A stretch of DNA of 64,000 bases from an uncultured virus (IMG/VR IMGVR_UViG_3300021959_000014) (Duplodnaviria; Heunggongvirae; Uroviricota; Caudoviricetes): the IMG/VR virus record IMGVR_UViG_3300021959_000014, one strand, 5' to 3'. Below are positions 35,683 to 63,760 of this stretch, one piece after another; position 1 is the first letter of the stretch, and every line of letters starts with the position of its first letter. The notes under the pieces are model-generated. The model worked only from the letters and a program-made list of their open reading frames with translations, searched no databases and was not told the DNA's origin. The position numbers and the translations under genes are program-made.

Positions 35683-37287
35683 CTAGATAGTAGCTAATCC
35701 ACTAACGTGTACTTTACCGTAGAATTCTGGTCTGATCATTTTCTTCGCGTAACGAGTCATGATACCTTTTCTTGGTGTGAAAGATACTGGATCGTATACT
35801 AGAGGAGTCATGATTAATGGTACATAAGGAGCATATACAGCACCGCTTTCTAAGAACTGACCACCTCTAAATCCACAAAGGATAGTGTTTTCAGTCATAT
35901 AAGGGTTTTTGTATACCTTAAATCTACCGTTTAATTGACCTACTTTCTGTACTCCGAAAGCAAATTCTGCTGAGTCACCATCTGTATTAGCAGCATATCC
36001 TGGAATTGATTCTAAGATTGTAGCTACTGTTGGAGAACATACTAGGAAGTTTGCACCACCTCTTAATGTTTTTTGGTGAATCTTGTTAGATACTTTTTGG
36101 ATTTTAGTTCCTAAAGTTTGGAACCATTGTCCTTGAGTATTGTAGAAGTCTGATCCAGCATCTGCCCAAGCAGTACCGTTCCATACTCTGTTGTTTTGTG
36201 CAGACCATCTTTCAGTAGTAGCTGCACCACTGATCAACATGTCTAAGATCTCTAGATCAATTTCCATTGAGATGTACTCACTCAATAAAGAAGTAAGTTC
36301 TGCCTCAGCGTCAATTGAATGATAAGCATTAAGATCCTGAGCAAACTCTGGAGTCCATTGTGCTTTCAATTTTCTAGTTTTAGCAACTACTGCTTCAGAT
36401 TTCAACTCTACGTTGATTTCTGGAATAGCTAATGAAGAAACTGCTCCTGCTGCAGGTGCTGATGAATCTTCAAAGTCACCTCTTGAATTGTCTGCTGGTT
36501 GTGCGTGATAGTTAACTGATGCAGAGAATGGAGAAACTAAAGTTTTTCCAGCTGGTGCATCTTCTACTACGAATGTTACATCTGTTCCGTCAAACTTAGT
36601 AAGTTCTGGGTTAAGTGTAATATCTACTGAAGAAGATAAAAGTCTAAATGCTCTTACACCTTCTGCGTCAAATCCTGGTATAGTTGCTGCTGCAACTGTT
36701 ACTTTTCTGTAGTTCGCTGGATCTTTAGCATCATCGTAATCGATAAGTGCTTCAGTAGCTGAACCAGTTACTTGAGCGTCTGCTGCTCCAGTTAACGCTT
36801 TAATAGAGTATCCGAATTGACCTGCTCCGTAAAGTCCGTCTGCAGCATCAACATCTTTTGCCATTTTTGTTCCAGCTTCAGTCACGTTACCGTGCATGTT
36901 GTCGCCGTCTGCTCTACCGATTGAATCAGCAGAACCGTATTTAAAGTCTAAGTAAAATACTAGACCTGAAGGTAAGTTCATTGGTTGAACTGATACAAAG
37001 TCTTTTGCAGAGATTTGAGCGAATACCTTACGTACTAAAGGTAAAGCTACTCCAGCCCACTGCTCATTACCTGAAGCAGTTGCACCGATTGCACCTGTAC
37101 CTGTAGATGATTGTTCTGCTACGATTTGCTTAGCTTGATTTTCTAACATCATCGACATGTTTGCCGAATCTTTAGAGTTCAATCCTTCTAGCAATCCAGA
37201 AGCAGCCCATTTGTCAGCTAAACGTGATGCATCAGCAGCGAGTGCTTTGTATCCGTTAGCGCTTTCTAAAAGAGAATTAATTTCCAT
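35683..37287 (-). CDS. gp23: Major capsid protein, T4 gp23-like
   Basis: LPLVRKVF, VQPM..PSGLVFYL, AKTRKLKAQWTPEFAQDL.AYH.IDAEAEL, YAPYVPL, FTPRKGIMTRY. Confidence 0.97.
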   Translation of the reverse strand: MEINSLLESANGYKALAADASRLADKWAASGLLEGLNSKDSANMSMMLENQAKQIVAEQSSTGTGAIGATASGNEQWAGVALPLVRKVFAQISAKDFVSVQPMNLPSGLVFYLDFKYGSADSIGRADGDNMHGNVTEAGTKMAKDVDAADGLYGAGQFGYSIKALTGAADAQVTGSATEALIDYDDAKDPANYRKVTVAAATIPGFDAEGVRAFRLLSSSVDITLNPELTKFDGTDVTFVVEDAPAGKTLVSPFSASVNYHAQPADNSRGDFEDSSAPAAGAVSSLAIPEINVELKSEAVVAKTRKLKAQWTPEFAQDLNAYHSIDAEAELTSLLSEYISMEIDLEILDMLISGAATTERWSAQNNRVWNGTAWADAGSDFYNTQGQWFQTLGTKIQKVSNKIHQKTLRGGANFLVCSPTVATILESIPGYAANTDGDSAEFAFGVQKVGQLNGRFKVYKNPYMTENTILCGFRGGQFLESGAVYAPYVPLIMTPLVYDPVSFTPRKGIMTRYAKKMIRPEFYGKVHVSGLATI

Positions 37288-38540: not shown

Positions 38541-39086
38541 TTAAGATACTAGATCTGATGCTGCCTGTTTAAGTAGAGAGGTTACTTCCACGCCTTTAAT
38601 TAATGCTTTTGCGGAAAGACCTGCTGCTGCTGCCCATCTAGTAGTTTTAAGAGCTTGTAGAGCTCCTCCTCCTGCTTGACCTGCCATTAAGAAAATTAAG
38701 ATACCGTATACTATTTTAGTTGCTGCTGATTTCTTCTTTTCATCTTTAGTAAACATGCCCACTATACGTTTGATAGGTGCCATAAACGCTGCTTCGTTCT
38801 TATGTGTGAAGTCTTCCCACCATTCAGCACTTTTGAGTATTCCGGGTTTATTATATTTCTTAGATAGCGATTTAGCAATCTTAGCAAGCATATGTGCTAC
38901 TGTGTTAGATAGAAGTATATATCCTATTATACCTACTACTCCAGCGACTTCGTTTGTATCTCCGTCTAATTCACCTTTATGCGGTCTTAGCTCTTTTTCT
39001 ATTGCTTTTGCTATTTGGTCTGCCATTTGCCCCATTCCTGGTTCAGCATTACCTTCTGCTTCTAGAATAATACTTGCTAACTTCAT
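38541..39086 (-). CDS. Hypothetical protein with MKLASIILE leader and hydrophobic Gly/Ala-rich helices
   Basis: 181 aa; VAGVVGIIGYILL and IVYGILIFLMAG segments; coupled to the protease gene. Confidence 0.75.
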   Translation of the reverse strand: MKLASIILEAEGNAEPGMGQMADQIAKAIEKELRPHKGELDGDTNEVAGVVGIIGYILLSNTVAHMLAKIAKSLSKKYNKPGILKSAEWWEDFTHKNEAAFMAPIKRIVGMFTKDEKKKSAATKIVYGILIFLMAGQAGGGALQALKTTRWAAAAGLSAKALIKGVEVTSLLKQAASDLVS

Positions 39087-39664
39087 TAAGCTCTTAGTAT
39101 ATCGTTTAAGATTGCATCCAGCTTAATAAACTTAGATGCCTTACCTTTTCCTTCATTAAGTGAAATAGGATTCATAAATGCTCCATGAGTAGAAGGATTA
39201 GATACAAAATCCCAACATACCAATTCAAAATCATCTTGCACTTCTAATGCTCCTTCATTTGTTTGTTGTACTGAGCCTGTTCCTCTAGATGATATCCCTA
39301 TAGTGTGTCCTGCTTTAATTATTTCTTTTACAATATTACCTGAAGGTGTATTTAGTAGTTCCACACGTCCCATAAGGTCGTTTCCCTTCCACCATAAGTC
39401 TTTTACTATGTGTGAAGCGTTCTTTAGAGAGACAATGGGAGACTCAGGGTGATCTAATTCTCCAAATGCATTACCGTTTGAAACAAATTCAGAGATATAC
39501 TTCTTAGTTTCTCTTTCTAAAATAGCTTTACTATAAGTTCTACCATTTTGATTCTTTGCAGTTGCTCTTTGCATAACTCCTTCTACTTCGTATACTCCAG
39601 GTCTTTCTTTGGATTCTCTTAGAATAGGATTAAATGATGTAACTTCTATAAGTAATTGTGCCAT
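39086..39664 (-). CDS. gp21: Prohead core protease, T4 gp21-like
   Basis: KNQNGRTY, GELDHP, SH, NTPSG.I, GISSRGTGS, DFVSNPS..GAF. Confidence 0.95.
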   Translation of the reverse strand: MAQLLIEVTSFNPILRESKERPGVYEVEGVMQRATAKNQNGRTYSKAILERETKKYISEFVSNGNAFGELDHPESPIVSLKNASHIVKDLWWKGNDLMGRVELLNTPSGNIVKEIIKAGHTIGISSRGTGSVQQTNEGALEVQDDFELVCWDFVSNPSTHGAFMNPISLNEGKGKASKFIKLDAILNDILRA

Positions 39665-39684: not shown

Positions 39685-40311
39685 TTAAAGATTTAAATCA
39701 TCTTTAGATGCTACTTTTATGATTTTATGCATCTCGTTATTTAAATGGTTAACAACATCTTCTGCGTAAAATAAATCGTCCTGTACTAAATCAGTGTAAA
39801 GTTCTTGAAAATAGTTTAAGAATTTAGCTTTTAATTGTTGGTTTAATAAACCTTCGATACGTTCCGCTACTTCTCTATCAACTCTAGCTTCATATATATT
39901 ATCTGATGGTGAGTTTGAAATAGCATTTAGTATATCATCAGCTGTTTCTGGTTGGATCTGTCCGTCATCTAATAATTTAAATATTATTTTTCTAAGAGTT
40001 TCTGTTGATGCTGTCATTTTTAAAGCTTCTTCAACTTCTCCATCTGCAGGATCAATATCTTTTAGTAAGTCAATTGCTCTTGCTATTTTAGGATTTTTAA
40101 GAATATTTTCGTTTTCTTTTTCCGCTAACTTATTTACCAGAGCAATGACTGCAGATGCCATTGTTTGTGGGTTTTTTATCTGGTTTGCAAAGTTATTAAG
40201 TACTGAGTCGGGTATTGTAGGAAGGTTAACTGCTTGTGCTTCTTCTAGCTTGCGTGCTTCTGTTAAACGTCTTTTTTGATTCCAACTATATATGTCAAAG
40301 TTATCTTTCAT
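39685..40311 (-). CDS. Modular hypothetical protein, putative internal head protein
   Basis: MKDNFDI..RLTE|ARKLEE|A leader; further VEE|A and IYE|A junctions. Confidence 0.7.
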   Translation of the reverse strand: MKDNFDIYSWNQKRRLTEARKLEEAQAVNLPTIPDSVLNNFANQIKNPQTMASAVIALVNKLAEKENENILKNPKIARAIDLLKDIDPADGEVEEALKMTASTETLRKIIFKLLDDGQIQPETADDILNAISNSPSDNIYEARVDREVAERIEGLLNQQLKAKFLNYFQELYTDLVQDDLFYAEDVVNHLNNEMHKIIKVASKDDLNL

Positions 40312-42764
40312 TATTTTCTTTTTTTATTTTCTTGTAAAGTTCCATTAACTGTAGGTCTTGAGTATACCGTTTCTTTTTCTACTTCTCCTAGAGGATTTTG
40401 TGTTTCAATATCTTTCTGTGATATCATTTTTACTTTAGGTTGTGTTAGTCCTTTTGTGAATCCACCTTTAATTGCTGGTCTTAAGTCCTTATTAAATGCT
40501 TGCTCTATTGCAGGAGCTAAAAATCCTCCTACTTTTAGACCTTCTTCATTCCTAATATCACCTAAAGTGTCATATACTTTCTGAATCTTACTTCTTGTTT
40601 TATCGTAGTATGCTTCAATATCTGTTACAACATCTTGAAGATTTATAATTGATTGTTTCATTCCTTCATATCCTCCGTATGTTTCAGAGAAATCTGCTAA
40701 TGCATTTGTTGCAGCTTCATTTACTACCCCTTCTTCTAATACCTTAACAATTATAGATTTAATATTTTCTTTAACTACCTTCTCCTTGCCCATTGCTTTT
40801 TTAATAGCAGCATCTTTACTAGCCATATAATCATCTCCATCTACATCTCCATCTCCATCGTGATCTTTACCTTTAGCTTCTTCAAGATTTTCTACCATAA
40901 ATTGAGTTTCTAGGTATGTCAATACATCTTTTTTAGCAAACTCTACCATTCCTGGTTCTGTCATTGGACCCATTTTCCATTCTTCCCAAGCCTTGATTAG
41001 CATATTAACTCCTTTATCAAATAAAGGTCCCATACTCTCAACATATCCTCCAGTTTCGTAGTCGTTTTCAGTTACTACTTTACCTCCTTTAGTCTTTCTT
41101 CTTCTACCTTCGTTAATTGAATCATCTCCATGGAACAGTTGAGACTCTAATCCTGCTAGATTAAAATCATACTTATCAGCAATTGCTATCATCATTTCCA
41201 TAGCAGCATCTTTCTCGCTAACATCTCCATCTGTGGCGATATCTTGAATTCCTTGAACGCATAAATCAAATGCTCCTCGACTTTCCTGTATATCACTATC
41301 CTCTGCTACTACTTTTCTTACCTTATCAGCTCCTTCGTCCATTTCTCCTAAAGTTTTACGTACTGCTTGTCTAAACATCTTTAAGTGATCTAAAGCTCCT
41401 TTTTTATCTCCATCTTGTATGTAGTCTATAGCATTACCTAAATGTCCGTTTTCTCTATGGTAATTTACATCTTCAAAAGAGTCATAAAGTTTTTGCATTT
41501 TATCTAAAGGAGTACTTATTTTAAGTTTAAGCCCTGCTTTTAGCATTCCGTCGTAGTCAAAGTCTGTTGAAAATTTGTCTCCTAATTTATAAATTTTATC
41601 AATTGCTTTCATATCTGTATCTTTACCGTACTTAGCAATCTTTTTCATTTCATCATCAGTCATAGCTTCTGCTACAAATTGTGTTTTGGCTGCTTCAAGA
41701 TCTCCTTTATATAGGTTATCTACTACTTTTTTCCCTAAAATTTCTAAATCGCCGTTAGTTAGAGAATGAGGTCTATTAAAACCCTCTAAATATCCTCTAC
41801 CTATAGCTATTAAAGTTTCATCTGGATTGTCAGTATCTTCAGGCTCTAGTGTTAAATCTTCTGCTTCTTGCATGTAGTCCCCAGGCATTTCGTAATTTAC
41901 TGATAAGAACTCTTGAAAATTATCTAATGCATCTTGAGGTTCTTGATCTCTTGATTCAGGGTGTGTTGCGAAAAAGTCACCTATAATATCATCATCTATT
42001 AGACTTTTTCCTGTGTTGGGGTTAGAGTAGTACTTTATAATAAAATTTGCAATAGATTCTTCTTGATTACTTTCTTTGATATCTTCTACCATTACTAATC
42101 CTATATCTCTATAATCTATTTCTTCTTCTTGTCCATCTAGGTCAACAGCAAATACAGTATCGTCATGCCACATTGCAGCATTATCATCATTATTAGAATT
42201 AGGATTATAAATTATATATTCTTTTCCGTTACCGGTTTGAATACGAGCATCGTCTGCGTCACCTAATTTTTTCAGTAACTTTTCTTTGGTATAGTTTTCT
42301 TTTAAATCAGCTTTTTTCATGCCGTTAAAAGTATCTACTTTATTCTTATCAGTTGGTTCTACCATTTTATCGTGCTTATCAACTTTTGCTGATTCTCCTG
42401 CTAGTATGTTAAGGTAGTGCATTCTATCTTTTTCAAGGTTTTTGATTGCAATTTTCTCTGCTTTATCTTTATCCTCTTTGGTTACAGTAGCAGCCGAATC
42501 TACTCCAGCTTTTTCTAATTCAAAGTCTACCCCTCTTGTTAGGTCCTCTACCGAGTATTGAGATACTGGGCATTCGTACTCTAATGAAGCTTCTTTTTTA
42601 GCTTCAAAAAGAATCCCTTTACTTTTAAGGATTGATACTGTGTCTGGGAATCCGTTAAAGGGAGATAGGAATTGAGATAGCTCTCTCTTAGCATCTTTAA
42701 GGAATTGTTGTTTAGAGAATGTACCCTCTACAACTGCGTTATATTTTTCTTGTATTGTTTTCAT
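40311..42764 (-). CDS. Large modular protein (817 aa), putative protease-processed head polyprotein
   Basis: About 8 unrelated segments joined by LKE, MVE/IKE, MQE, VAE, MDE/VAE/IQE, INE/VTE, MVE/LEE, VKE/LEE/VNE; contains a DHDGDGDVD motif. Confidence 0.75.
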   Translation of the reverse strand: MKTIQEKYNAVVEGTFSKQQFLKDAKRELSQFLSPFNGFPDTVSILKSKGILFEAKKEASLEYECPVSQYSVEDLTRGVDFELEKAGVDSAATVTKEDKDKAEKIAIKNLEKDRMHYLNILAGESAKVDKHDKMVEPTDKNKVDTFNGMKKADLKENYTKEKLLKKLGDADDARIQTGNGKEYIIYNPNSNNDDNAAMWHDDTVFAVDLDGQEEEIDYRDIGLVMVEDIKESNQEESIANFIIKYYSNPNTGKSLIDDDIIGDFFATHPESRDQEPQDALDNFQEFLSVNYEMPGDYMQEAEDLTLEPEDTDNPDETLIAIGRGYLEGFNRPHSLTNGDLEILGKKVVDNLYKGDLEAAKTQFVAEAMTDDEMKKIAKYGKDTDMKAIDKIYKLGDKFSTDFDYDGMLKAGLKLKISTPLDKMQKLYDSFEDVNYHRENGHLGNAIDYIQDGDKKGALDHLKMFRQAVRKTLGEMDEGADKVRKVVAEDSDIQESRGAFDLCVQGIQDIATDGDVSEKDAAMEMMIAIADKYDFNLAGLESQLFHGDDSINEGRRRKTKGGKVVTENDYETGGYVESMGPLFDKGVNMLIKAWEEWKMGPMTEPGMVEFAKKDVLTYLETQFMVENLEEAKGKDHDGDGDVDGDDYMASKDAAIKKAMGKEKVVKENIKSIIVKVLEEGVVNEAATNALADFSETYGGYEGMKQSIINLQDVVTDIEAYYDKTRSKIQKVYDTLGDIRNEEGLKVGGFLAPAIEQAFNKDLRPAIKGGFTKGLTQPKVKMISQKDIETQNPLGEVEKETVYSRPTVNGTLQENKKRK

Positions 42765-49167: not shown

Positions 49168-51636
49168 TTATGCTTCTGGTTCTTCTGCTGGTTCTTCAAA
49201 ATCAACAGGTTCATCTGTTAAATCAGCTCCTTCTTCTTCTCCTGCATCTGCTGTATCATCTCCATCTGGGGTATCTTCTCCGGAATCTCCTCCTCCTTCT
49301 TCTCCAGGAAAATCTCCGCCACTTCCGCTTGATGATCCACTATCTGTTTCTGGGGCTGGTTCTGCTGGTTCTTCTGGTTCTCCCATTGGACCTTCCTTAT
49401 ATAAAATTGCTAACTTATCCAATGCTTGTTGAAATTCATTTATCTTATTTAAGAAGTATCTTTTACCCAGTATCTGAGCTTCAAAGCCTTTACCTGTCCA
49501 CTTCAAAATGTAATCCTGTCCATTGGTTAAGTTAATTCTAAATTCCGTTGGTCTCGGTGATATCCAATCAATCTTGTTAACAAATTCTTTAAAGTCTTCT
49601 GTTTGAAGTCTTATTAACACTGCTTTTAGTGTAGGAAATTTTTCTAACATTATATCCGTAGCATCTTCTAAAATTGTTTCTGATCCTATCTCTTCATTGA
49701 TTCCGTCAATAGTTCTCTTATCGTATTCAGCTGATAAGAAGTCATTAAAGTAACTGTTCATATTAAAGTTACTAGGTAACTTTGTATTAGCATCTTGATC
49801 TTCTATTCTTTTATGCATGTAGTTAATAAAGTTAGCTTCAACTTTATCGTCTACTATTGCAGATGCTTTATCATCAACATCCATTTTATCCAAAAACGTA
49901 TTGGTTGTTTTACCATCTTGTTTTTTAGCTAAAGCTCTAATAACATCTATACCTGTTTTTACGTTTCCTATCCCAGGTATAAAACCTATTGCTGCATCTA
50001 GTGCTCCACCTACTTTTTTTGCTACTATTTTAGTTTTAGTAAGTTTTATAAATTTCTGTAGGTCTCCAAAAGTTTGTATTTTATTTAGCTTTCCTGAGTC
50101 GCTGTTTTCTTCTTCCTTTAATATTTCATCCATCTCTGTGGAAGAATCTACTACAGTTATATCGTTAGCTCCTAAGTCCATTACTACATCGTAAACGAAT
50201 GCTTGTGGATCTTCGTCTGGTTCTTGATAAAATTCTGAATCTGGGTTTTCTGAGTCATCATACATGTCGTCGAAACCGGCTTCATGTTTAAATATAAAGT
50301 AGATAATAACATTACCGTTTCCGTCATTGTCAACAACCTCCATCTTAACATAAGTTGGATCTACGTTTTGATCTAAGATAGCCATAGCTTTCTTATAATC
50401 GTGTAATTTTACTTTAATGTAGTGATGATCATCTCCTTCACCTTCACTTAGGTTAGCTGCTTTTATCTTTTCAATATCGTCTTTATCTAGGAACTCTGAA
50501 GCTAATGCTGGATCGTTAGCAATCTTATTAGCTGCATCTGCTCTTACAGTGTGGTCAGCATCTTCTGCTTCTTCCTCAGACCATCCAAGGTATTCCATTG
50601 CAACTTCTGATGTTCCCATATCATCTAGTAACTCTTCTATATGAGCAACTACGCTATCTCTATGCTTATCAATAAACGTACTATCAGCAAATATCTCAGT
50701 AACTTTACCAACTGCTTGGTCGTAGGTCATTCTCTTATTGTATATGCCTGCTGCTTTTTCAATAGCATTGTCAATTTTATTTAATTGATCTCCGTACATA
50801 TCTGATACTGGACCACCTTGAGGTTCGGTACCTGGATCGTTTTCCATTTCTCTTTCTACTTGTGCTCTTTTGATTTTTAACTTACGAACTATCTCTCTAG
50901 CTTTTTGTTCTTTTCTTTCTGCACTAGCTTGTGTTCTTACAGCAGCTCTACCTTCAGGGGATTTTGAATAAGCATCTAATTTTTTCATTTTATCTGAATG
51001 CATCTTAGCTTGCCTTATCTTTACCATAACCGGGTCATTCATATCAGTTACTTCTCTTAAGTGGTTCATGTAAGGTTCTTCTGTACCGTCTACAAAAGTT
51101 ACTGTCCAGTCTTCGGGGTCTAGGCCTACTTTATTTATTCTAGCTACCTCTTTACTCCCTATTGATAACCTATATTCCTTTAGAGCTGATATGTTCTCCT
51201 CTAAAGACCTAGTTGATTTCATAAGTTCATATTGATCTGGTCTTTCTGTTCTGAGGTATTTTTGTATCTGTCTAAAATTAGATTTGATCAGTTCAAATAA
51301 CTCTCTTGCAGCTTTATCACTTCTAACATCGGCACTGTTCATTAACTGTCTTACATCATCTATTATATCTGAGTATCCGAAATATAGGCTTTGAAAAGAA
51401 GGGAGATCATATACTTTGTGATCAACCGAGTTTGTTTCTTTATTAATTTTATGAGTAAAGTAGTATGTCTCTAAGTTTGCACTAACAAAATCCTGTTCAG
51501 GATCTACCGATTTACCGTATCTCTTTTCTAGTGCTTTCCTCATTACAGGAGTTAAGTCGTCTAAGCGAAGCACTTTTTTGTCCTCTCTTAAAACTTCAGC
51601 ATAGCTTTCTAGTATTAGTTTTTCTAATTTATGCAT
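49168..51636 (-). CDS. Large modular protein (822 aa), putative protease-processed head polyprotein
   Basis: MHKLEKLILE|SYAEVLRE leader; junctions LEE/LKE, LRE, VTE, LSE, MDE/LKE, INE/ILE; acidic disordered tail. Confidence 0.75.
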   Translation of the reverse strand: MHKLEKLILESYAEVLREDKKVLRLDDLTPVMRKALEKRYGKSVDPEQDFVSANLETYYFTHKINKETNSVDHKVYDLPSFQSLYFGYSDIIDDVRQLMNSADVRSDKAARELFELIKSNFRQIQKYLRTERPDQYELMKSTRSLEENISALKEYRLSIGSKEVARINKVGLDPEDWTVTFVDGTEEPYMNHLREVTDMNDPVMVKIRQAKMHSDKMKKLDAYSKSPEGRAAVRTQASAERKEQKAREIVRKLKIKRAQVEREMENDPGTEPQGGPVSDMYGDQLNKIDNAIEKAAGIYNKRMTYDQAVGKVTEIFADSTFIDKHRDSVVAHIEELLDDMGTSEVAMEYLGWSEEEAEDADHTVRADAANKIANDPALASEFLDKDDIEKIKAANLSEGEGDDHHYIKVKLHDYKKAMAILDQNVDPTYVKMEVVDNDGNGNVIIYFIFKHEAGFDDMYDDSENPDSEFYQEPDEDPQAFVYDVVMDLGANDITVVDSSTEMDEILKEEENSDSGKLNKIQTFGDLQKFIKLTKTKIVAKKVGGALDAAIGFIPGIGNVKTGIDVIRALAKKQDGKTTNTFLDKMDVDDKASAIVDDKVEANFINYMHKRIEDQDANTKLPSNFNMNSYFNDFLSAEYDKRTIDGINEEIGSETILEDATDIMLEKFPTLKAVLIRLQTEDFKEFVNKIDWISPRPTEFRINLTNGQDYILKWTGKGFEAQILGKRYFLNKINEFQQALDKLAILYKEGPMGEPEEPAEPAPETDSGSSSGSGGDFPGEEGGGDSGEDTPDGDDTADAGEEEGADLTDEPVDFEEPAEEPEA

Positions 51637-51639
51637 ATC

Positions 51640-53835
51640 TTATTTGCTAGTATTATTTTTATTGTCGTCTATGCCCTGGTAGTTTATATCTTTGAATTCC
51701 ATTGCAGATTTTACTGCACCTTGTGCAAATCTCTTTACTTCTCTTCCGGGGATTTGTATATAGTCAAAACCACTGCCATTTAATTTCGGCACTGTAATCT
51801 GTAAGCTAGGTCCGTTTACTTTGCCTCCTGCATATCTTGTGAATGTAAAATAAGAATCTTGATAAAGGTCTGTAGACTCTTTTAGTTTCTTTCCTTTTAC
51901 TTCATTGTAGTAATCTTCTTCTTCTTCGTCATTATATCCCCAAGGATCATCATCGTAATCATCTTCATCATCTTCAAATTCAGGTTCATAATCAAATATA
52001 TCACCTACGTTATTAGGAGTATATTTACCTTGTCTAGATTCAATATAATCTAAAATCATATCTAAAGCATCTTTGAGCATTCTTTCATAAGAACTATCTC
52101 CAGAGGGTTCATCTAATACTTTAATCATTGCTGATTTTAAAGGATGATTGGCATTAACTAAAAATGAGTGGGCAGGTCCTGCAGTTTCTGTCCCATACCC
52201 TTGAAAGTATTTATCTCCATCATTGTAGAAACGGTAAGCTATTCTATTTATAGCTCGTAGCATTTCACCTTCTACTGTTTCTGATTTACCTTGCCCTGCT
52301 ACTAATGCATCATATAAAGGTTCGTTTCTATCTTCTAATTCTTTGCCTACAAATTCCTTTAACATACTACCTTCAGCTATATCAGCATCTAATTCAAACT
52401 TCTTAAATTTATCTACGTCATTAATGCTTTTAATATGAACCCTCTTACCGTCTTTATCTAATCCGTATACTTTAGAACCATCATTTCCAGGTTTCTTTAG
52501 CTCTGCTTTAGCTCTACGTTTAGATACTGATGAACCTATTCCTAAGTCCTTTCTAGTAGCTTCGAATAAATCTTTAGCTTTTAATACTTTTTCTAAGTCA
52601 AATATAGCATTATGCATTGAATCTAATTTAACCTTTAAGTCTTTATCTTTAGCAGCGATCATCTTTAATGGATTTGAATGTCTAAACTTAAACATTGCTC
52701 CATTAATATCTGCTACTGCTTTCTTTACTAAAGCTTTTGAGTTATCAGCATCTAATTCGTTTAAATTTTCACTAACTCTTTTACCTAATCCAGGTAAATT
52801 TCTAAGATCTTGAACGTACTCATCTGTCTTAACAATTATAGTACCTAGATTAGTATCTTCTCCATCTGGGTCTTTAAATAAAGTAATTTTAGATACTCCA
52901 GGGTTAAAGTTAGGATCTTTGTCTTTAAAGTTACTGTTATAGTACTGTGTTTGATGCATTTGGTATTTTTCACCTTCGTGCTCTAAATTATGATACTGAA
53001 CGTGTACAAACATTGGTGCATACCTTCCCATTCTAGCTTTAATAGGACTCTTATCATGAGCTTTTAAAGCTTCTACGGCAGCATTTTCACTTGCTACTCC
53101 TTTAGGAAGTAAGTCAGCAAATACACCTTTACCGAACATATCAGGCCCTCTTTCGTTAGCATCATCTATTACTTCTGATCCTTTAAAGCTGTGGTCTGTA
53201 AATTCTTTTAGTATATTTTTAGTTTCATTTACCGATGCAACTGATTTAAAGTGTTTAATAAGTTCGTTTTTTAATACATCTTGATTTATAAATGCTTCAC
53301 CGGATGGTTTCACTCCTATATCAACTAATTTTTTGTTAAAAGAAAAATCAGCTAAATGAAGATTACCGTTTTGAATATGAAATGCAAATTCATCTTCTCC
53401 TTGTTCACCTTTATATGTAACATGTATATCAAATGAATTTTCTTCTAAACGATGTGCTTTAATTCTTGCAACTTCATCTCCTAGTGTTTTTAGACATTTA
53501 GTTAGTGATCTACCTACTTGAGTTATCATACTTCTCATATCGTCAACTGAGAAGTTTACATTGTTCTCTTCGTTTTCTTCTATTTTATCTACTAAGTCTA
53601 CATTAACTCCCTGTTTAGTAAGCTTCTCTGCTTTTCTTTCATCATCTGTGCGGACTGTTCCATCTTCTTCTTTTAGTAGTGAGAGTTTATTAAGAATGGA
53701 TTCTTTAAGGGTTGTGAGTTTAACTGTTGTTTCCTTAACAAATGTAGTGGAGTGCTTTAAATCTGTGTTTGTATTCAAATCTTTTAAAGCAGTTTCTACC
53801 TTAATTAAGCGTTTTTTAAGCTCTTTATAGGTCAT
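51640..53835 (-). CDS. Large modular protein (731 aa), putative protease-processed head polyprotein
   Basis: Junctions LKE, IEE, VNE/LKE, VSE/LNE, LFE, IAE/LKE, YNE/LKE separate compositionally distinct segments. Confidence 0.75.
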   Translation of the reverse strand: MTYKELKKRLIKVETALKDLNTNTDLKHSTTFVKETTVKLTTLKESILNKLSLLKEEDGTVRTDDERKAEKLTKQGVNVDLVDKIEENEENNVNFSVDDMRSMITQVGRSLTKCLKTLGDEVARIKAHRLEENSFDIHVTYKGEQGEDEFAFHIQNGNLHLADFSFNKKLVDIGVKPSGEAFINQDVLKNELIKHFKSVASVNETKNILKEFTDHSFKGSEVIDDANERGPDMFGKGVFADLLPKGVASENAAVEALKAHDKSPIKARMGRYAPMFVHVQYHNLEHEGEKYQMHQTQYYNSNFKDKDPNFNPGVSKITLFKDPDGEDTNLGTIIVKTDEYVQDLRNLPGLGKRVSENLNELDADNSKALVKKAVADINGAMFKFRHSNPLKMIAAKDKDLKVKLDSMHNAIFDLEKVLKAKDLFEATRKDLGIGSSVSKRRAKAELKKPGNDGSKVYGLDKDGKRVHIKSINDVDKFKKFELDADIAEGSMLKEFVGKELEDRNEPLYDALVAGQGKSETVEGEMLRAINRIAYRFYNDGDKYFQGYGTETAGPAHSFLVNANHPLKSAMIKVLDEPSGDSSYERMLKDALDMILDYIESRQGKYTPNNVGDIFDYEPEFEDDEDDYDDDPWGYNDEEEEDYYNEVKGKKLKESTDLYQDSYFTFTRYAGGKVNGPSLQITVPKLNGSGFDYIQIPGREVKRFAQGAVKSAMEFKDINYQGIDDNKNNTSK

Positions 53836-53866
53836 GTTAATGTTTTTTAATTTTATAGCTATATAA

Positions 53867-53874
53867 ATAAATAG
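53867..53874 (-). promoter_or_regulatory. Putative late promoter CTATTTAT (overlapping tandem copy)
   Basis: CTATTTATTTATAT about 30 nt upstream of ATG 53835. Confidence 0.6.
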
Positions 53875-54314: not shown

Positions 54315-54995
54315 TTATTTCTCTTTCCATATATCCCCTCGTCTACATCTTACCACTGCTCCTGAGGCATAAGCTGATGGCCATGTGTCGTATTTCTGTT
54401 TTGCTAATCTAGTACATCTATCGTCTTTCTTCTCGTTTAAATTACCGTCAGTATAAGCATCGTATCTATCTTCATCGCTTTGTGCATAATTTAACATATC
54501 GTTCAAATCGTAATCACTATGAAGTTTTGGATTCAAAATAGTTACAGCGTTAGGTAAATCGTCTCCTCTTCCTATATGGAGTTCATAATCTACGCCAGGT
54601 TTGTATTTACTTCTTAAGTGGTTAACAACGTCCTCAATAGCGTCTAAATCGTATCCAAAGCTAATTAAGTTTTGAGGGTTTTTTATTTCGTTTACCATCC
54701 CTACTACTAGGTTTGTTAAATCTTCTTTTGTTACCTTTGCTTTTTTTGTATTCTTCACGACTGTCTTTCCTTTACTTCCTGCTTTCTTTTTCTTTGCTGC
54801 AGTAGCGGCTCTTTGGCCTTTTGTTAAACTCTGTGCTTTTGATTTCGGCAAGCACCTATCCGGATTTTTTTTATTCTTTGAAGTACCACAGTCTCCTGCT
54901 ATGTTACCAGAAGATGATATTCTTACCCATTTTTCTTTTTTAAACCAATCTCTTAATGACTCTTTAACTATATCTCTTACTGTACTTTGTTTCAT
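54315..54995 (-). CDS. Modular basic Cys-containing protein (LRDWF..EKWV and WPSAYASG modules)
   Basis: 226 aa; leader VRDIVKE|S; junctions VNE|I and LNE|K. Confidence 0.75.
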   Translation of the reverse strand: MKQSTVRDIVKESLRDWFKKEKWVRISSSGNIAGDCGTSKNKKNPDRCLPKSKAQSLTKGQRAATAAKKKKAGSKGKTVVKNTKKAKVTKEDLTNLVVGMVNEIKNPQNLISFGYDLDAIEDVVNHLRSKYKPGVDYELHIGRGDDLPNAVTILNPKLHSDYDLNDMLNYAQSDEDRYDAYTDGNLNEKKDDRCTRLAKQKYDTWPSAYASGAVVRCRRGDIWKEK

Positions 54996-55394: not shown

Positions 55395-55970
55395 CTATTC
55401 TAGCTTAAGTTTTAAAAATTCTATATACTCCTGTAATTCTTTAGTAATTTTTCTTTTTGTTTCCGTTTCATTACTTTTCCAGTCCTCTATATCTCCTTGC
55501 TCTGTTACAAATGTTTGCTTAGATGAGTTGTTTATATGCTCAATTTTTTGCTCAAATGCTTTGATAAAGTATTTAATATTACCCTTGTTAACACTTCTAA
55601 TGTAGTCTTCAAATAATCCGTTTTTCCTGAGCTCTTCCGTATATGTCATATAACAGTTAAAACACATTTTTGATTTCTTATATGTCTCTTTACTCAGGTA
55701 GTAATTCATTGGTCCGCTGCATTTAGGACAGGTAAGAGGAGTCTGCATTGCTTTTTTTGCTGCGTCAAACTTGGTAACGTTTTGTTTTATCCCGTTCTTT
55801 ATTACCCATTGTTTTCCATTTTCTTCCCAAACTTCACCTTCTTTATGTACTGTGTATGTTTTTTTATACCCTATCTGTGACTTAGTAGATGCAGTATAAT
55901 CTTTTTTAATAAGATTTCTCATGCGCTCTACATCAGCTTTTTTAAACTCTTTTTTTAGTTTATTACTCAT
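55395..55970 (-). CDS. Zinc-ribbon (CxxC...CxxC) hypothetical protein
   Basis: CPKC and CFNC pairs; GEVWEENGKQW motif. Confidence 0.75.
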   Translation of the reverse strand: MSNKLKKEFKKADVERMRNLIKKDYTASTKSQIGYKKTYTVHKEGEVWEENGKQWVIKNGIKQNVTKFDAAKKAMQTPLTCPKCSGPMNYYLSKETYKKSKMCFNCYMTYTEELRKNGLFEDYIRSVNKGNIKYFIKAFEQKIEHINNSSKQTFVTEQGDIEDWKSNETETKRKITKELQEYIEFLKLKLE

Positions 55971-56553
55971 ATCCTAACTCTTTAAGACCGTTTAGTGCTT
56001 CTGTTATGTCTCCTCCTTTAACTCTAAACGCTATACCGCCTTTTGCTCTCCACTCTTCTATGTTTGACTTTTTATCATCAATGAGTATAGCATTAGGGTT
56101 AGCATAGTTTTGTTTATATGCTGAGTATGCAAATATTACTTTAGGTTTTGGAGTAAGTTGATTCTTAACCCAGAGGTTTTTACCTAATCTGGATGTGTTA
56201 TCTCTTGATGGTGAAGTAAGAAGCGATGGATTGTATTTAGATATAAAGCTCCAGAGTTCTTTTCCTCTTGGCATCCAGTCCATTCCTACCCAGAATGATA
56301 CACCAACTATTTGGTCTATAAATTTCCAGAATTCAGTCATGCCGAATATTGCCTCAAAATCTTTTGGCTTAATTACTTTTTTTATGTCCTTAAGTGGGTA
56401 GTGATCAGGACCAACCTCATTTACTTTATCAAAGAATCTTTTTTCGAAGTCTGTTAATACTCCGTCCATATCGCAATATATCTTATACTTTGATGTTTTT
56501 TCTGCTACTGTTGGTGGGTGTGCATCTAATAAATCTATTATACTTGTATTCAT
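55963..56553 (-). CDS. HAD-superfamily 5'(3')-deoxyribonucleotidase-like protein
   Basis: IYCDMDGVL (motif I), LLTSP (motif II), K, ILIDD (motif IV). Confidence 0.85.
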   Translation of the reverse strand: MNTSIIDLLDAHPPTVAEKTSKYKIYCDMDGVLTDFEKRFFDKVNEVGPDHYPLKDIKKVIKPKDFEAIFGMTEFWKFIDQIVGVSFWVGMDWMPRGKELWSFISKYNPSLLTSPSRDNTSRLGKNLWVKNQLTPKPKVIFAYSAYKQNYANPNAILIDDKKSNIEEWRAKGGIAFRVKGGDITEALNGLKELGYE

Positions 56554-56629: not shown

Positions 56630-58198
56630 CTATATAGTGTAAACCGGTGTAGATGTTTTGAAGTCTTTCTTTCTCATTATAGTCTTTGCGTACATATCTA
56701 TACCATCATCTGTAACATCAATTGCAAAAGGAACGTTAATATCATTGTTGAAATCTTTTACTACTGCGTTAATATCCGTATCTAATCTTGAAAGAGGTTT
56801 ACCATGTTTTCTATGTAACCTCTTAAACATACCAATTAGTTCTGGTACTGTTATTGTTTTACCGTTCCGGTCATCGTTAGCTCTGTCCAAAAAGTGTTTT
56901 GTAAACTCTATATCTATCCCTAACTTTATAAAAAGTTTATCTGCGTATTTTTCTATTGCGTTTAATTCTGTTTTTGTAATATTTTCACCTACAATTGATT
57001 CCTTTTTAGTCTTTTCTAAAGAGTCTCCTGCTTTTTTAGCAGCTTTATACGCTTTTGAGTTTTTATGAGAAGCTTTCTTTCCTTTCTTTTTCTTAGCATT
57101 AATATTAGCCCAGAGACCTTCTTCTAAACCTTTTAAACTATCCTCCCAGTTACGGAAAGTTATGTTGCCTAATAGGTACGCTTCTTTTTCTATCTCCATT
57201 AAGTACTCATCTTCATTTGTATTTGAAGTACCTATACGCCCTAACCTACCTTCTATGTTCTGAATATGGTGAATCATTTCGTGAGCAAAAGATCTAACGA
57301 TATCTTTATCGTGTCTTCCTTCTGCGAAAAGTACTATCTCTTTTAATGATGGACTGTAATATGCAGTTCTGCCGAAAAAGTTACTTGCTTCTATTGGGTC
57401 CCTTTTAATTTTTATTTCCGGTAAAGGTAATATGTTCATTTTACGGTCTAACATATATTCAGTCAAAGATGTTATATAATCTTTTAATTCTAGTTTCTTA
57501 CCTGCTTCTTCATTTATTTCTACCTCTAATTGTTCTACTTCGTTATTTTCGTTAAGAGCAAAATATTCATCTATAATTCCGCTGAGACTTGAGCTTATTA
57601 CTTCTGCTACTATTTTATCTTTCAAACCTGTAAGTATTGATAGTATTTCTTCTCTAGATAACTCTTTAGGGAAAAAATCTAAAATCTTATCTAAGTTACC
57701 CGATAGTATATTGTTTCTAAAATCTGTTGCTCTAATTGTTGACCCAGGTTTTGCTGCGAGTGCTAATCCTTTAACATTGGGAGCGTTTTTATAAGTAGTA
57801 ACTCTCCTTAAATCTACAAAATCTTTCTCACCTCTTATTCCTGTTACTGATGCGAATTCTTGTTCAGGGTTAGCTTGTGCATAATCTTTGGCTGCAAACA
57901 TTGGGTTGCTCCCTCCGTCTTTTATCTCAACATTACCTAAGTATTTAGCATAAGTATTCCATATAGACATTGATTCATCTTTAGATATACCGTTTCTCTC
58001 ACCTGCTCCTACGAAAACTATAACCTTGTCTATATTCGGTTTTTCACCGTTGCTGCCACCTAGAAGTGAAGCACCAGTTTCTTTGTAATTATCTTTATTA
58101 TATATTGAACCGTTATATGAGCCGTCTAATAATGACTTTACTACGTTGTAATGTCCTCTATGAGGAGGTTTATATGCGCCTGGGTATAATGCTATCAT
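56630..58198 (-). CDS. Multidomain protein: HxGH nucleotidyltransferase-like + zincin HExxH + basic peptide + C-terminal FTKHFLDR domain
   Basis: PGAYKPPHRGH and RATDFR (Rossmann NTase); FAHEMIHHIQ..EKEAY (zincin); GLWANINAKKKKG; IEFTKHFLDR. Confidence 0.8.
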   Translation of the reverse strand: MIALYPGAYKPPHRGHYNVVKSLLDGSYNGSIYNKDNYKETGASLLGGSNGEKPNIDKVIVFVGAGERNGISKDESMSIWNTYAKYLGNVEIKDGGSNPMFAAKDYAQANPEQEFASVTGIRGEKDFVDLRRVTTYKNAPNVKGLALAAKPGSTIRATDFRNNILSGNLDKILDFFPKELSREEILSILTGLKDKIVAEVISSSLSGIIDEYFALNENNEVEQLEVEINEEAGKKLELKDYITSLTEYMLDRKMNILPLPEIKIKRDPIEASNFFGRTAYYSPSLKEIVLFAEGRHDKDIVRSFAHEMIHHIQNIEGRLGRIGTSNTNEDEYLMEIEKEAYLLGNITFRNWEDSLKGLEEGLWANINAKKKKGKKASHKNSKAYKAAKKAGDSLEKTKKESIVGENITKTELNAIEKYADKLFIKLGIDIEFTKHFLDRANDDRNGKTITVPELIGMFKRLHRKHGKPLSRLDTDINAVVKDFNNDINVPFAIDVTDDGIDMYAKTIMRKKDFKTSTPVYTI

Positions 58199-59136
58199 GC
58201 TAAAAATGATTGTACTTTAGAGTCTATTTCTCCTACTGAGGAGTGATTTAATTTTTCTTGAAATGTTGGATTGTATATCATATCTACAATATTATCTAGA
58301 ACTTCATCTGCTTTTCCTTTTCTTTTTATATTGCTGTCTCTATACTTTTGAACTGCTGCTTTAAGCTTATCCTGTCCTGGGCCTGCTCCGTTCTTTCTGT
58401 AAGCTTTTAGAAATGCAGTTTTAATTGCTTTGTCTTCTGATCTATTTTCTTTATCCCAATCTATACTACCAACATCTTTTATAAATTGTTGCTCTTCTTC
58501 AGGTGTCATCTCTACTGGTACAAAGAAGGAAGAGCCGCCGACATTATTATCTTGATTAAATTTCTCTAAATAATCTTTTACTCCACTTAAGCCACTTTTA
58601 GCAGCTTTATCAAATCCTTCAACTTCTTTTTTATATTTACCGCCTCTATCACTTACAAAGATAGATAAGTTACCTTTTAACTGTCTGTTAAAGTCTTCTA
58701 TTTTAGTATACACATTTCTCCAGGTAGCAAATACAGAATCGCCAGGAATATTTCTTTCCCTAGCCATAAAGTTAGAAACGTAAGAAATCATAGGGTGAGC
58801 ATACACCATAACCATATAGACCTGGTAGCCTGTTGCAAGTAATTTATCTAGATTTTTTTGGAAGCCTGCTCCGGATGCAGTAGTATCCCAAACAAAGCTA
58901 GTTTTTTCTTCTGCTGCTGCCATTGCGTCTTTGGACGTTTGATTGGCTGCTGGTCCTAGTTTGTTGTAATACGGGTGGTCTTTGTCCTCCACGTACTTGT
59001 CTGGGTTGAATTGTACTAGGCTGTCTAGTCCTAATTGGTTGAGTAGGTACGTTTTCCCTGATCCTGCTCCTCCCGCCATTATTATTGCTTTGGGTGCGGA
59101 TCTGTCCTCTAGTATTAGTGTTGATAATTTTATCAT
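58195..59136 (-). CDS. P-loop kinase (zeta-toxin/AAA_33-like) with MIKLSTLILE leader
   Basis: AIIMAGGAGSGKT Walker A, FNPDKY, FVWDTT, R.R.IP lid motif. Confidence 0.85.
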   Translation of the reverse strand: MIKLSTLILEDRSAPKAIIMAGGAGSGKTYLLNQLGLDSLVQFNPDKYVEDKDHPYYNKLGPAANQTSKDAMAAAEEKTSFVWDTTASGAGFQKNLDKLLATGYQVYMVMVYAHPMISYVSNFMARERNIPGDSVFATWRNVYTKIEDFNRQLKGNLSIFVSDRGGKYKKEVEGFDKAAKSGLSGVKDYLEKFNQDNNVGGSSFFVPVEMTPEEEQQFIKDVGSIDWDKENRSEDKAIKTAFLKAYRKNGAGPGQDKLKAAVQKYRDSNIKRKGKADEVLDNIVDMIYNPTFQEKLNHSSVGEIDSKVQSFLA

Positions 59137-61465: not shown

Positions 61466-61496
61466 TAATATAAGAAAAATAATTCTAAATATCAAC
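61466..61496 (-). promoter_or_regulatory. Putative early/middle promoter GTTG-N17-TCTTATATTA
   Basis: Second copy of the motif, upstream of the primase; the GTTG lies in the last codons of the kinase-like gene. Confidence 0.6.
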
Positions 61497-61913
61497 TAAT
61501 TTCAGTTTATTTTTTTGATTTACCATTACATTTGATGGTCTTATATCTAGTTCTTCTGGGTCGAGTCCCATCCTTTGTGCTTCAGCTTCAGTTGCTTCAA
61601 TCCATTCTTCAGGAATATCTCCTTTAAATTCTCCTAGCACTTCCATTTGAATTATTCCTAACTTTTCATTAATCTCTTCTACATCGTATATAAAAGCAAA
61701 GTTATTTGTTTTTTTACCTTTAAGTATATGTGCATGTTCTAACTCTATTGAATCAGTTGTTACTTTATAAACTCTACCGTTTAGAAGATATGCAGAGCCG
61801 TAATCTCCTGAGCCTAGATACTTCCCTCCAAGTTCTTTTACTTTCTCTACTTCTTTTTCAAACCCGGGATCGTAGTAAAGAATCTCTCCTAATATTACGT
61901 GTGATAGTCTCAT
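61485..61913 (-). CDS. Minimal protein-kinase-like (PKL fold) protein
   Basis: LGSGDYGSAY Gly-loop, VYK, E in helix C, IQME hinge, LDIRPSNVM catalytic loop, terminal LVDI. Confidence 0.75.
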   Translation of the reverse strand: MRLSHVILGEILYYDPGFEKEVEKVKELGGKYLGSGDYGSAYLLNGRVYKVTTDSIELEHAHILKGKKTNNFAFIYDVEEINEKLGIIQMEVLGEFKGDIPEEWIEATEAEAQRMGLDPEELDIRPSNVMVNQKNKLKLVDI

Positions 61914-62350: not shown

Positions 62351-62622
62351 TTGCGTTCTATTTTAAGGGTTAAGTCTCCTGTGCCTTTTATTAGCCGGTG
62401 GTACACTTCCTTTGGTATAAATAGCTTGTTATCATCTAAAGAAACGGGAAGGTTATTATCAAATTGAAATTGCCAGTCTGTTTTATGCATTGCTACAACA
62501 TACCGATCCTCTCGGTCTTTGTGCCAAACAAATTCATCTTCATCTGTGTTTTGATTGAAGAATCTAATATCACCGTCATCTAAGTACGGTCTACCAATAT
62601 CCTGAGAAGTTTCTTTTTCCAC
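62347..62622 (-). CDS. Small cupin-like protein (start uncertain, GTG)
   Basis: WHKDREDR and FIPKEVYHRL match the two cupin motifs; no in-frame ATG near the 5' end. Confidence 0.65.
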   Translation of the reverse strand: MEKETSQDIGRPYLDDGDIRFFNQNTDEDEFVWHKDREDRYVVAMHKTDWQFQFDNNLPVSLDDNKLFIPKEVYHRLIKGTGDLTLKIERK

Positions 62623-63760
62623 CTAATGATTTCCAATAACGTCCAATATTACAAGCCCAGTATCCTGGTTTTGTTTTGTCTTTTTTAGTTGCACATTTAT
62701 GACGTGCAGCAAATGATGATCTTGCTCCAGGTTCATCTATCTTAACATTTAAACCTGTTGTACCTCCGAAAGATACTTTTACAACATTCCCTTTTTTATT
62801 CTTTGTGTATACGTAGAATTTTTTAGAACCTCCACGTTTTGGTTTATTTAGAGGTACATCTTTACCTTTGTATTCTGCTTCATCTAATTGACCTTTTATA
62901 GGTAGTTTTCTTTTAGCTATGGCCAGCAAAGCGCTTCTTAACTGTCTTTTCATATTACCTGCTTCCCATTCCCAGTATCCTATGTCTCCTTCTTTCCAAA
63001 AAATCATGTAGTCCTGATCTCTACCTTGTCCAGCTATTTTAATTTTAAATTCACTGTTTCTTAGTTTATGGAAAGGGAATTTTGATTTACGGTGATCGTC
63101 TTTAGTTACAATATACTCAGGTATAGATTTAGCTTCTTTAACTGGTTCTTTTAGGTTTTTAAACCATTTCATTAACTCATCATAAGACATATCGTATGCT
63201 GGGTGATTATCGGTGTCATCAAAGGCTTTTAATTCTGTAGGTTTTGCCTTTAGTAAGGATCGTATAGCTTTGTACCTATTATTAGTTGCATTTATAGTTT
63301 TAGTTGCATTAAATAAATTGTCTTTAGGCAACTTCCATTTTACATCCCAATCTTTTTGAGAAAATGATTCATCTAATGATTTTTCTAAATCTTTTATTTT
63401 TTGGGTTAAAAAAGGCACATTCCCTCCATCATTTGGGTCGGCTATTCTCGCTTTTAATCTATCAATTGTTTGTTGAATAGTTTCTTCCTTATCATATTTA
63501 GATTCTTCTAACATAGGTAAATCTAATGGTACTTTTATTCCTTCATATACTCCATATAGCCCTATATCTGTTGTTTCTATTAACTTTAAATCTTCTTCGT
63601 TAAGTTGAATTTTACCGTCTCTATAAGCGTCTCTTGCTTCAGCAAATAATTGTATAAAGCTATCGCTAGAATAACGGTAGACATTCTCATATAAAGAGAG
63701 ACTGTTATCTATATGGTACTTAAGTGATGGTTTTCCTATTATTTCAGTTAATCTAATCAT
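62591..63760 (-). CDS. Modular protein (389 aa), putative processed head polyprotein with a basic C-terminal VSFG..RH.C..YW domain
   Basis: MIRLTE leader; junctions LEE|S, LDE|S, VKE|A, LDE|A. Confidence 0.75.
   Translation of the reverse strand: MIRLTEIIGKPSLKYHIDNSLSLYENVYRYSSDSFIQLFAEARDAYRDGKIQLNEEDLKLIETTDIGLYGVYEGIKVPLDLPMLEESKYDKEETIQQTIDRLKARIADPNDGGNVPFLTQKIKDLEKSLDESFSQKDWDVKWKLPKDNLFNATKTINATNNRYKAIRSLLKAKPTELKAFDDTDNHPAYDMSYDELMKWFKNLKEPVKEAKSIPEYIVTKDDHRKSKFPFHKLRNSEFKIKIAGQGRDQDYMIFWKEGDIGYWEWEAGNMKRQLRSALLAIAKRKLPIKGQLDEAEYKGKDVPLNKPKRGGSKKFYVYTKNKKGNVVKVSFGGTTGLNVKIDEPGARSSFAARHKCATKKDKTKPGYWACNIGRYWKSLGGKRNFSGYW

What the first reader, a model, noticed from the sequence alone, without database searches (positions are those of the whole stretch)
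51640..53835. 731-aa polyprotein-like ORF with doubled cleavage sites at most junctions
Seen: SVNE|TKNILKE|F, RVSE|NLNE|L, DLFE|A, DIAE|GSMLKE|F, YYNE|VKGKKLKE|S. These separate a beta-rich module (MFVHVQYH..QTQYYNS), a helical module, a basic module, a GKSETVEGEMLRAINRIAYRFYNDGD module and a terminal TRYAGG..LQIT module. Doubled sites separated by 1-5 aa are what insertion of a cassette carrying its own site next to an existing site would leave. The gene has its own TATTTAT promoter-like motif.
Basis: partly seen in the sequence, partly recalled or inferred. Interest (0 to 1): 0.72.

Follow-up and report, generated by a model that had tools for sequence, protein, structure and literature searches.

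The report
Cleavable phage head-cargo polyprotein
A marine relative of phage T4 strings five small, freely swapped protein modules behind a fixed front end, joined at the motif cut by T4-type head proteases and largely free of that motif inside, so one gene probably loads several separate small proteins into the capsid, although no cut or packaging has been measured.

Summary
The ORF is real (minus strand, 731 aa) and lies in the head cluster of a 168-kb marine T4-like phage, 12 kb from a gp21-type protease. It is a constant ~200-aa N-domain plus five modules. Motif-blind homology breaks fall on the named joints, and each joint has an L/I-x-E. Relatives add, drop and reorder modules; the same modules sit in other carrier genes, and two occur alone behind an ~18-aa leader. 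Hydrophobic-x-Glu is enriched at joints (129 of 149 joint types) and depleted inside modules. Inside module E it is at 0.34 of expectation when embedded, but 0.96-1.09 in leaderless relatives. This points to cutting by the head protease with the modules surviving. Doubling is real here, but single sites are the family rule (99 of 149), leaders are doubled too, and deletion gives the same pattern, so 'insertion scars' is not shown. No module has a known family or fold. Cutting, packaging and ejection are inferred. A cultured relative, Flavobacterium phage immuto (gp079), allows a test. The scan found this kind of system before on other DNA.

The parts
51640..53835 (-). The 731-aa carrier ORF (P0001); no Pfam, PHROG or NCBIfam family
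53863..53873 (-). Two overlapping TATTTAT motifs, -38 and -34 from the ATG; phage-wide upstream motif, probable late promoter (inferred)
53575..53835 (-). Residues 1-87: probable head-targeting propeptide. Starts M-T-Y-x-E-L, like the front of the T4 capsid targeting sequence; hydrophobic-x-Glu at 45 and at 56 in 110 of 110 N-termini
53224..53574 (-). Residues 88-204: conserved second half of the constant N-domain; not folded here
53203..53226 (-). Joint 1, doubled (Glu204, Glu211)
52768..53202 (-). Module B, residues 212-356 (145 aa); helices plus beta meander, folds alone (pLDDT 89.0); no fold match; stands alone behind a leader in L231
52756..52770 (-). Joint 2, doubled (Glu356, Glu360)
52561..52755 (-). 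Module C, residues 361-425 (65 aa, basic); in 6 of 120 carriers; relatives skip it exactly
52561..52563 (-). Joint 3, single site (Glu425)
52372..52560 (-). Module D, residues 426-488 (63 aa, basic); in 46 of 120 carriers and in other carrier families; not seen alone
52354..52374 (-). Joint 4, doubled (Glu488, Glu494); resembles the doubled end of the leader of stand-alone module E genes
51901..52353 (-). Module E, residues 495-645 (151 aa); helical domain plus acidic tail, folds alone (pLDDT 87.5); widespread family with leader-led, embedded and leaderless forms
51877..51903 (-). Joint 5 (Tyr-Asn-Glu645, then Leu-Lys-Glu653)
51643..51876 (-). Module F, residues 654-731 (78 aa); in 22 of 120 carriers; no family
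39086..39664 (-). gp21-type prohead protease (PF03420; T4 gp21 chain 5JBL, E 3.6e-26): the presumed cutting enzyme
35683..37287 (-). Major capsid protein (PF07068) with four hydrophobic-x-Glu in its first 60 residues, the last (V-A-E, residue 58) near the T4 maturation point
49168..51636 (-). Next gene downstream (822 aa): second carrier with a short leader, holding modules of the same pool; its C-terminal domain is fused to the N-domain gene in phage immuto

Best explanation
A late gene for an internal head-cargo polyprotein. (1) Shown: a constant N-domain carries a variable string of 20-150-aa modules drawn from a pool shared with other head-region genes, and joints carry hydrophobic-x-Glu. 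(2) Inferred: the N-terminal propeptide brings the chain into the prohead core, as the T4 capsid targeting sequence does. (3) Inferred, well supported: the phage's own gp21-type protease cuts after Glu at each joint, removes the propeptide and the 4-8-residue spacers and frees about six small proteins, which survive because they lack internal sites. (4) Inferred, weaker (about even odds): the freed proteins stay in the head and enter the host with the DNA, acting early against host defences or on DNA, like T4 IPI. (5) Evolution: crossovers in or beside the short, AT-rich site codons swap, add and delete modules in frame. A crossover inside the shared site leaves one site; keeping both flanking sites, or the doubled end of a leader, leaves two.
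For: Head-cluster context with terminase, portal, protease, scaffold-like gene and capsid; 22 of 34 head-region ORFs against 27 of 162 others have the motif in the first 18 residues. Motif-blind breaks carry the motif at 610 of 1250 ends (185 expected) and 709 of 1189 starts (218 expected); the Asp version is depleted and the Lys version at background. 129 of 149 joint types carry it, against 61 in shuffles. Flanks keep the site across neighbours: N-domain end 57 of 58, B start 54 of 55, B end 38 of 43, D start 12 of 12, D end 18 of 19, F start 14 of 14. Module E embedded in distant carriers has it at its start in 73 of 93 (13.3 expected). Inside 45 module families the motif is at 0.56 of expectation (21.3 against 37.9; Poisson 0.002), controls 0.83-1.28, non-head ORFs 1.12. 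Inside module E: 0.34 when embedded (n=70), 0.96 leaderless (n=41), 1.09 in the bacterial-genome set (n=22). B and E fold alone; synonymous changes outnumber amino-acid changes in B and D and in 2 of 3 comparisons of E. T4 gp21 cuts after L/I-X-E (PMC9026906, passages).
Against: No cut, packaging or ejection is measured. The motif is only two residues and its overall density in the protein is ordinary. Counts use related sequences and are not independent; the embedded module E set may be largely one clade. Modules were delimited at recombination points, so part of the interior depletion could be circular (the module E comparison uses one frame for all groups and avoids this). Val or Met at P3 is outside the T4 rule and rests on the capsid propeptide (inference). 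The first conserved sites are at 45 and 56, not at 10-19 as in T4 internal proteins. The mature capsid protein shows no depletion (6 against 4.7). 20 of 149 joint types lack the motif. In T4 and SPN3US the described cuts trim ends or destroy core proteins. Purifying selection is weak or absent in the comparisons for C, F and the N-domain.
Confidence: 0.72

Rival explanations
1. Core or scaffold filler, like T4 gp22, gp67 and gp68: cut at the sites and expelled; the modules have no job after maturation.
For: T4 core proteins are cut into many fragments by gp21 and mostly leave the head (PMC9026906). Many modules of the pool are only 20-45 aa. The gene lies in the head cluster.
Against: Sites are excluded from module interiors, not scattered. 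B and E fold well alone. Module E exists as a leaderless gene in unrelated phages and prophages. Content varies freely, which is not expected of a size-setting core protein (inference).
Confidence: 0.1
2. The motifs are uncut leftovers of leaders from fused small genes, and double as recombination points; the protein works whole, like a polyvalent protein.
For: Joint 4 resembles the doubled end of stand-alone leaders. Homology ends fall on the site codons in DNA.
Against: Sites are also kept at module C-ends, where no leader stood. The signal is specific to Glu. Interior depletion appears only in embedded copies. Leftovers should decay, yet 54 of 55 flanks before module B keep the site.
Confidence: 0.1
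3. One reading: cassettes carrying their own site are inserted beside an existing site, perhaps by a dedicated mechanism, and doubled sites are the scars. It is compatible with cleavage and differs only in how the chain is built.
For: Modules do carry their own flanking sites. Doubling is in modest excess with a peak at 4-5 residues, 77 against 32. Some pair types are nearly always doubled (14 of 15, 13 of 14).
Against: Single sites dominate (99 of 149). Leaders are doubled in 17 of 19. Joint 1 fits a deletion equally well. Codon use at sites is close to background, with no DNA signal beyond the codons. Redundant sites are known in phiKZ propeptides (PMC9026906).
Confidence: 0.15
4. The chain is cut by another enzyme (a host protease after ejection, or another phage protease), not during head maturation.
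For: The enzyme was not tested. Polyvalent proteins are proposed to be processed after injection in some cases (PMC5512222, passages).
Against: The same motif marks the capsid propeptide, the scaffold-like protein and both ends of the protease itself.
Confidence: 0.05

Closest known systems
Phage T4 internal proteins IPI, IPII, IPIII and Alt: capsid targeting sequence plus gp21 processing (PMC9026906, PMC3012670; passages read)
   Same: gp21-type protease, L/I-X-E motif, N-terminus resembling the targeting sequence, small variable cargo; stand-alone leader-plus-module genes in relatives have exactly the IP build.
   Different: IPs are single small proteins cut once behind a 10-19-residue leader. 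Here one long propeptide leads a chain of about six products, with modules shuffled within and between carrier genes. No sequence similarity to IPs was found.
Polyvalent proteins of phages and conjugative elements (PMC5512222; passages read)
   Same: Many unrelated domains in one chain, mosaic among orthologues, proposed processing, explicit analogy to polyproteins.
   Different: Those carry recognisable enzyme domains and an embedded peptidase, mostly zincin-like. Here no domain has a family, and the presumed protease is the separate head-maturation enzyme with a visible site at each joint.
phiKZ and SPN3US head proteins with long, multiply cut propeptides (PMC10052503, PMC9026906; passages read)
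   Same: Cuts after Glu by a gp21 homologue; several sites close together.
   Different: Their motif differs (A-X-E in SPN3US) and the extra sites lie in discarded propeptides, not between kept domains.
Flavobacterium phage vB_FspM_immuto_2-6A gp079 (YP_010114604.1, annotated hypothetical)
   Same: Same locus; part of the N-domain (27% identity, E 5e-7) and four modules of the family pool, with the motif at joints.
   Different: None of modules B-F; fused to the C-terminal domain of the neighbouring carrier; no functional study found (listing only).

Membership tests
T4 internal proteins (CTS plus gp21) | Phage encodes a T4-type gp21 prohead protease and gp23 capsid | tested here: met
   PF03420 E 6.5e-36, PF07068 E 1e-78; 5JBL E 3.6e-26
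T4 internal proteins (CTS plus gp21) | L/I-X-E in front of the mature part | tested here: met
   each of the five joints has a strict L/I-x-E (211, 360, 425, 488/494, 653)
T4 internal proteins (CTS plus gp21) | Short 10-19-residue N-terminal targeting peptide removed by one cut | tested here: not met
   front resembles the T4 sequence but the first conserved sites are at 45 and 56; met only by stand-alone relatives
T4 internal proteins (CTS plus gp21) | One small mature protein per gene | tested here: not met
   N-domain plus five modules
T4 internal proteins (CTS plus gp21) | Found in the mature head, cut, and ejected into the host | not testable with these tools
   no proteomics for this phage; none found for relatives
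Polyvalent proteins | Several unrelated domains in one chain, mosaic among orthologues | tested here: met
Polyvalent proteins | Known effector or polyvalent-associated domains, or an embedded peptidase | tested here: not met
   no Pfam hit above cut-off for the protein, its six parts or 19 homologues; none in NCBIfam for 13 proteins
T4 core proteins gp22/gp67/gp68 | Sites scattered so that the chain is degraded | tested here: not met
   sites confined to joints and depleted inside modules
Any solved fold (modules B and E) | Significant structural match | tested here: inconclusive
   best Z 4.5 for B and 6.8 for E, rmsd 3.9 over 99 residues, generic bundle

The most novel reading that the evidence does not exclude
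Marine Immutovirus-like phages run a genetically reshufflable payload system: a few carrier genes draw on a pool of dozens of unnamed mini-proteins, recruit ordinary phage genes such as module E by adding a leader and purging internal sites, and use the head protease to release them as separate injected effectors against host defences.
Probability: 0.4. Interest if true: 0.85.

Novelty: new variant of a known kind. Interest (0 to 1): 0.68.

Why it matters
It would extend the T4 rule of one leader, one cut, one cargo to a polyprotein cut by the head protease, a strategy known mainly from eukaryotic viruses. The motif then predicts domain boundaries in large 'hypothetical' phage proteins and yields a catalogue of small candidate injected proteins. 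The loss of internal sites in embedded copies is a sequence test for which phage proteins meet the head protease. A cultured relative makes the central claim testable by one proteomics experiment.

Tried and rejected
Family scans gave nothing usable for the protein or its modules (Pfam; PHROGs 6, 21, 43, 113, best phrog_20881 for F at E 0.008; NCBIfam 82). Fold searches: module E had no Foldseek match at E<=0.001 in PDB and one unnamed viral match at 4e-6; module B had none in the viral library. A missing match does not show a new fold. The N-domain and modules C, D, F were not folded. The ESM Atlas gave nothing for module E and an automatic name 'putative methyltransferase' with no common Pfam for a leaderless relative; the helical model gives no support, so it was not adopted. 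A PC4- or PUR-like DNA-binding fold for module F was a recalled resemblance; sequence searches did not support it. No stand-alone F of 42-137 aa was found (weak search); D was not seen alone in 55 loci; C only with the N-domain. A DNA recombination signal at joints was not seen. The T4 late promoter orientation is not enriched upstream (5 copies against 27 of the reverse octamer). RNA-library contigs hold the gene (6 runs) but cannot show transcription. The clustering splits some modules at indels, so 93 architectures among 120 proteins is an upper figure. Ten literature searches listed no paper describing such chains; subscription journals are mostly missing and supplements were not read.

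Full report
Observation. The ORF is at window 51640-53835 on the minus strand and has 731 residues. The protein holds 14 hydrophobic-x-Glu motifs against 13.0 expected from composition, so density says nothing. Placement does: eight lie at the five joints, four in the first 87 residues and two inside modules. TATTTAT lies at -38 and -34 and is a phage-wide upstream motif, 36 against 7.4 in shuffles over 189 ORFs. A contig from an RNA library spans the gene and its neighbours with no difference.

Context. The genome is one 167,696-base contig of 34% GC, held in seawater data. Downstream lie terminase and T4-type portal, a gp21-type protease and a gp23 capsid gene. The protease matches the T4 gp21 structure at E 3.6e-26; it has His and Ser where that chain shows Ala, which I recall as a catalytic mutant and did not check. 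The capsid protein has four motifs in its first 60 residues, the last near the T4 maturation point. 22 of 34 head-region ORFs, against 27 of 162 others, have the motif in their first 18 residues. The nearest cultured phage is Flavobacterium phage immuto (capsid 68.6%, protease 75.1%), so a Bacteroidota host is likely (inference).

Modularity. 464 homologues were found among 7,999 candidates scored; I analysed the 120 listed, 511-1,266 aa, the query included. Ungapped, motif-blind alignment puts the query's breaks on the named joints. Across the family the motif lies at 610 of 1,250 ends (185 expected) and 709 of 1,189 starts (218 expected). The Asp version is depleted and the Lys version is at background. 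These events are not independent. The proteins are a constant N-domain plus a variable string of 20-150-aa modules, with up to 93 architectures among 120 (over-split) and 54 of 684 module pairs in both orders. The pool is shared with other genes: five more ORFs of this genome carry modules, and module D appears in several other carrier families. In DNA, homology to relatives ends at the site codons. Contigs of related phages in two RNA-library runs skip exactly module C, 52560 to 52768, with three letters fitting either side (laid at 85% likeness).

Stand-alone forms. Module E occurs alone behind a leader of about 18 residues in genes of 160-170 aa. Module B occurs alone behind a leader in a 170-aa gene (L231). 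A profile of E matches 1,399 representatives at E<=0.001 (the acidic tail may inflate this). Of the 141 new ones listed, 41 begin with the domain and have no leader, 93 have it further in, and 7 are partial; 73 of the 93 have the motif at the domain start against 13.3 expected. Leaderless relatives also occur in 51 loci of bacterial genomes, mostly gut Firmicutes, several beside prophage terminase, DUF4314 and cyclotransferase genes.

Are the sites used? 129 of 149 distinct joint types carry the motif against 61 in shuffles, and flanks keep it whatever the neighbour. Inside 45 module families it is at 0.56 of expectation (21.3 against 37.9, Poisson 0.002), while Asp, Lys, reversed and shifted controls run 0.83-1.28 and non-head ORFs 1.12. 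Module E gives a natural control: 0.34 of expectation in 70 embedded copies, 0.96 in 41 leaderless copies, 1.09 in 22 from bacterial genomes, with the Asp and reversed controls alike in all groups. Shared ancestry among embedded copies weakens the nominal p-value. The simplest reading is that embedded copies meet a protease of this specificity and are selected to survive it. B and E fold alone with mean pLDDT 89.0 and 87.5. Against this: the mature capsid shows no depletion, and C, F and the N-domain show weak or no excess of synonymous change.

Doubling. Here three joints are doubled under the strict pattern, one is single and one needs Tyr at P3. In the family 99 of 149 joint types are single and 30 have two or more. 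With one site fixed and the rest shuffled, 122 of 518 linkers are doubled against 88, and 28.8 of 147 types against 23.7; spacing peaks at 4-5 residues (two within-module pairs were dropped). 17 of 19 leaders before module E are doubled, and joint 4 resembles them. Joint 1 overlaps both the N-domain end and the module-B start of a relative with five more modules. Codon use at sites is near background. So doubling follows from joining two site-bearing ends by any route, or from a leader; insertion is one route, not shown.

Mechanism. Late expression (inferred from the motif); loading into the prohead by the N-terminal propeptide (inferred; the family starts M-T-Y-x-E-I/L, and the T4 sequence is printed in bioRxiv 10.1101/2021.01.19.427310); cutting at 45, 56 and the joints by the phage's protease (inferred, 0.72); retention and ejection of about six small proteins (inferred, about even odds). 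No module has a family or a clear fold match, so their targets are open. By analogy with T4 IPI (PMC3012670), counter-defence is my leading guess.

Comparison. It works like the T4 internal-protein system but fails two of its defining features, a short leader cut once and one product per gene. It shares mosaic multi-domain build with polyvalent proteins but lacks their domains and embedded peptidase. Papers: PMC9026906, passages and section 2.6; PMC3012670, PMC10052503, PMC5512222, PMC7824862 and the bioRxiv preprint, passages only; others as search listings only. Ten searches listed no description of such chains; the library lacks most subscription papers and I read no supplements. Earlier notes of this scan describe the same kind of system in other genomes; they are unchecked AI notes and not evidence. 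My reading was written down before I saw them.

Test system. Immuto gp079 (841 aa) sits at the same locus with part of the N-domain, four pool modules and the motif at its joints. Virion proteomics on it would decide the central claim.

Verdict. Observation confirmed; interpretation partly supported; new variant of a known kind; interest 0.68.

Noticed in passing
window 40311-42764, 49168-51636, 54315-54995, 56630-58198, 62591-63760 (all minus strand): Five more ORFs carry modules of the same pool; the 817- and 822-aa ones look like further carrier chains.
   Followed up: partly
window 55963-56553, 58195-59136, 61485-61913 (minus strand): A 5'-nucleotidase-like gene, a P-loop kinase-like gene and a kinase-like gene start with short leaders ending in hydrophobic-x-Glu, so enzymes may be loaded into the head too.
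   Followed up: no
window 39086-39664 (minus strand): The protease has L-I-E at residue 7 and a site near its C-terminus; T4 gp21 has LIE-9 and C-terminal processing.
   Followed up: partly
genome-wide: The upstream motif TATTTATA is the reverse complement of the T4 late promoter as I recall it, and here lies on the coding strand (27 copies against 3.0 expected).
   Followed up: partly
L168, L178-L180, L248-L298: Leaderless module E genes sit in a Firmicutes prophage cassette with DUF4314, DUF3846, cyclotransferase, Nmad4 and terminase genes; one is fused to a MutS-I-like domain.
   Followed up: partly
P0004 residues 1174-1240 and relatives: A C-terminal module of the pool also occurs in cyanophage genes annotated 'possible cytidyltransferase', so the pool crosses host phyla.
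   Followed up: no
   Followed up: no
P0191, P0169, P0209, P0238: Several stand-alone module E genes end in Tyr-Gln-Glu at the stop, like the Tyr-Asn-Glu of joint 5; the site rule may accept Tyr at P3, or these genes came out of a chain.
   Followed up: no
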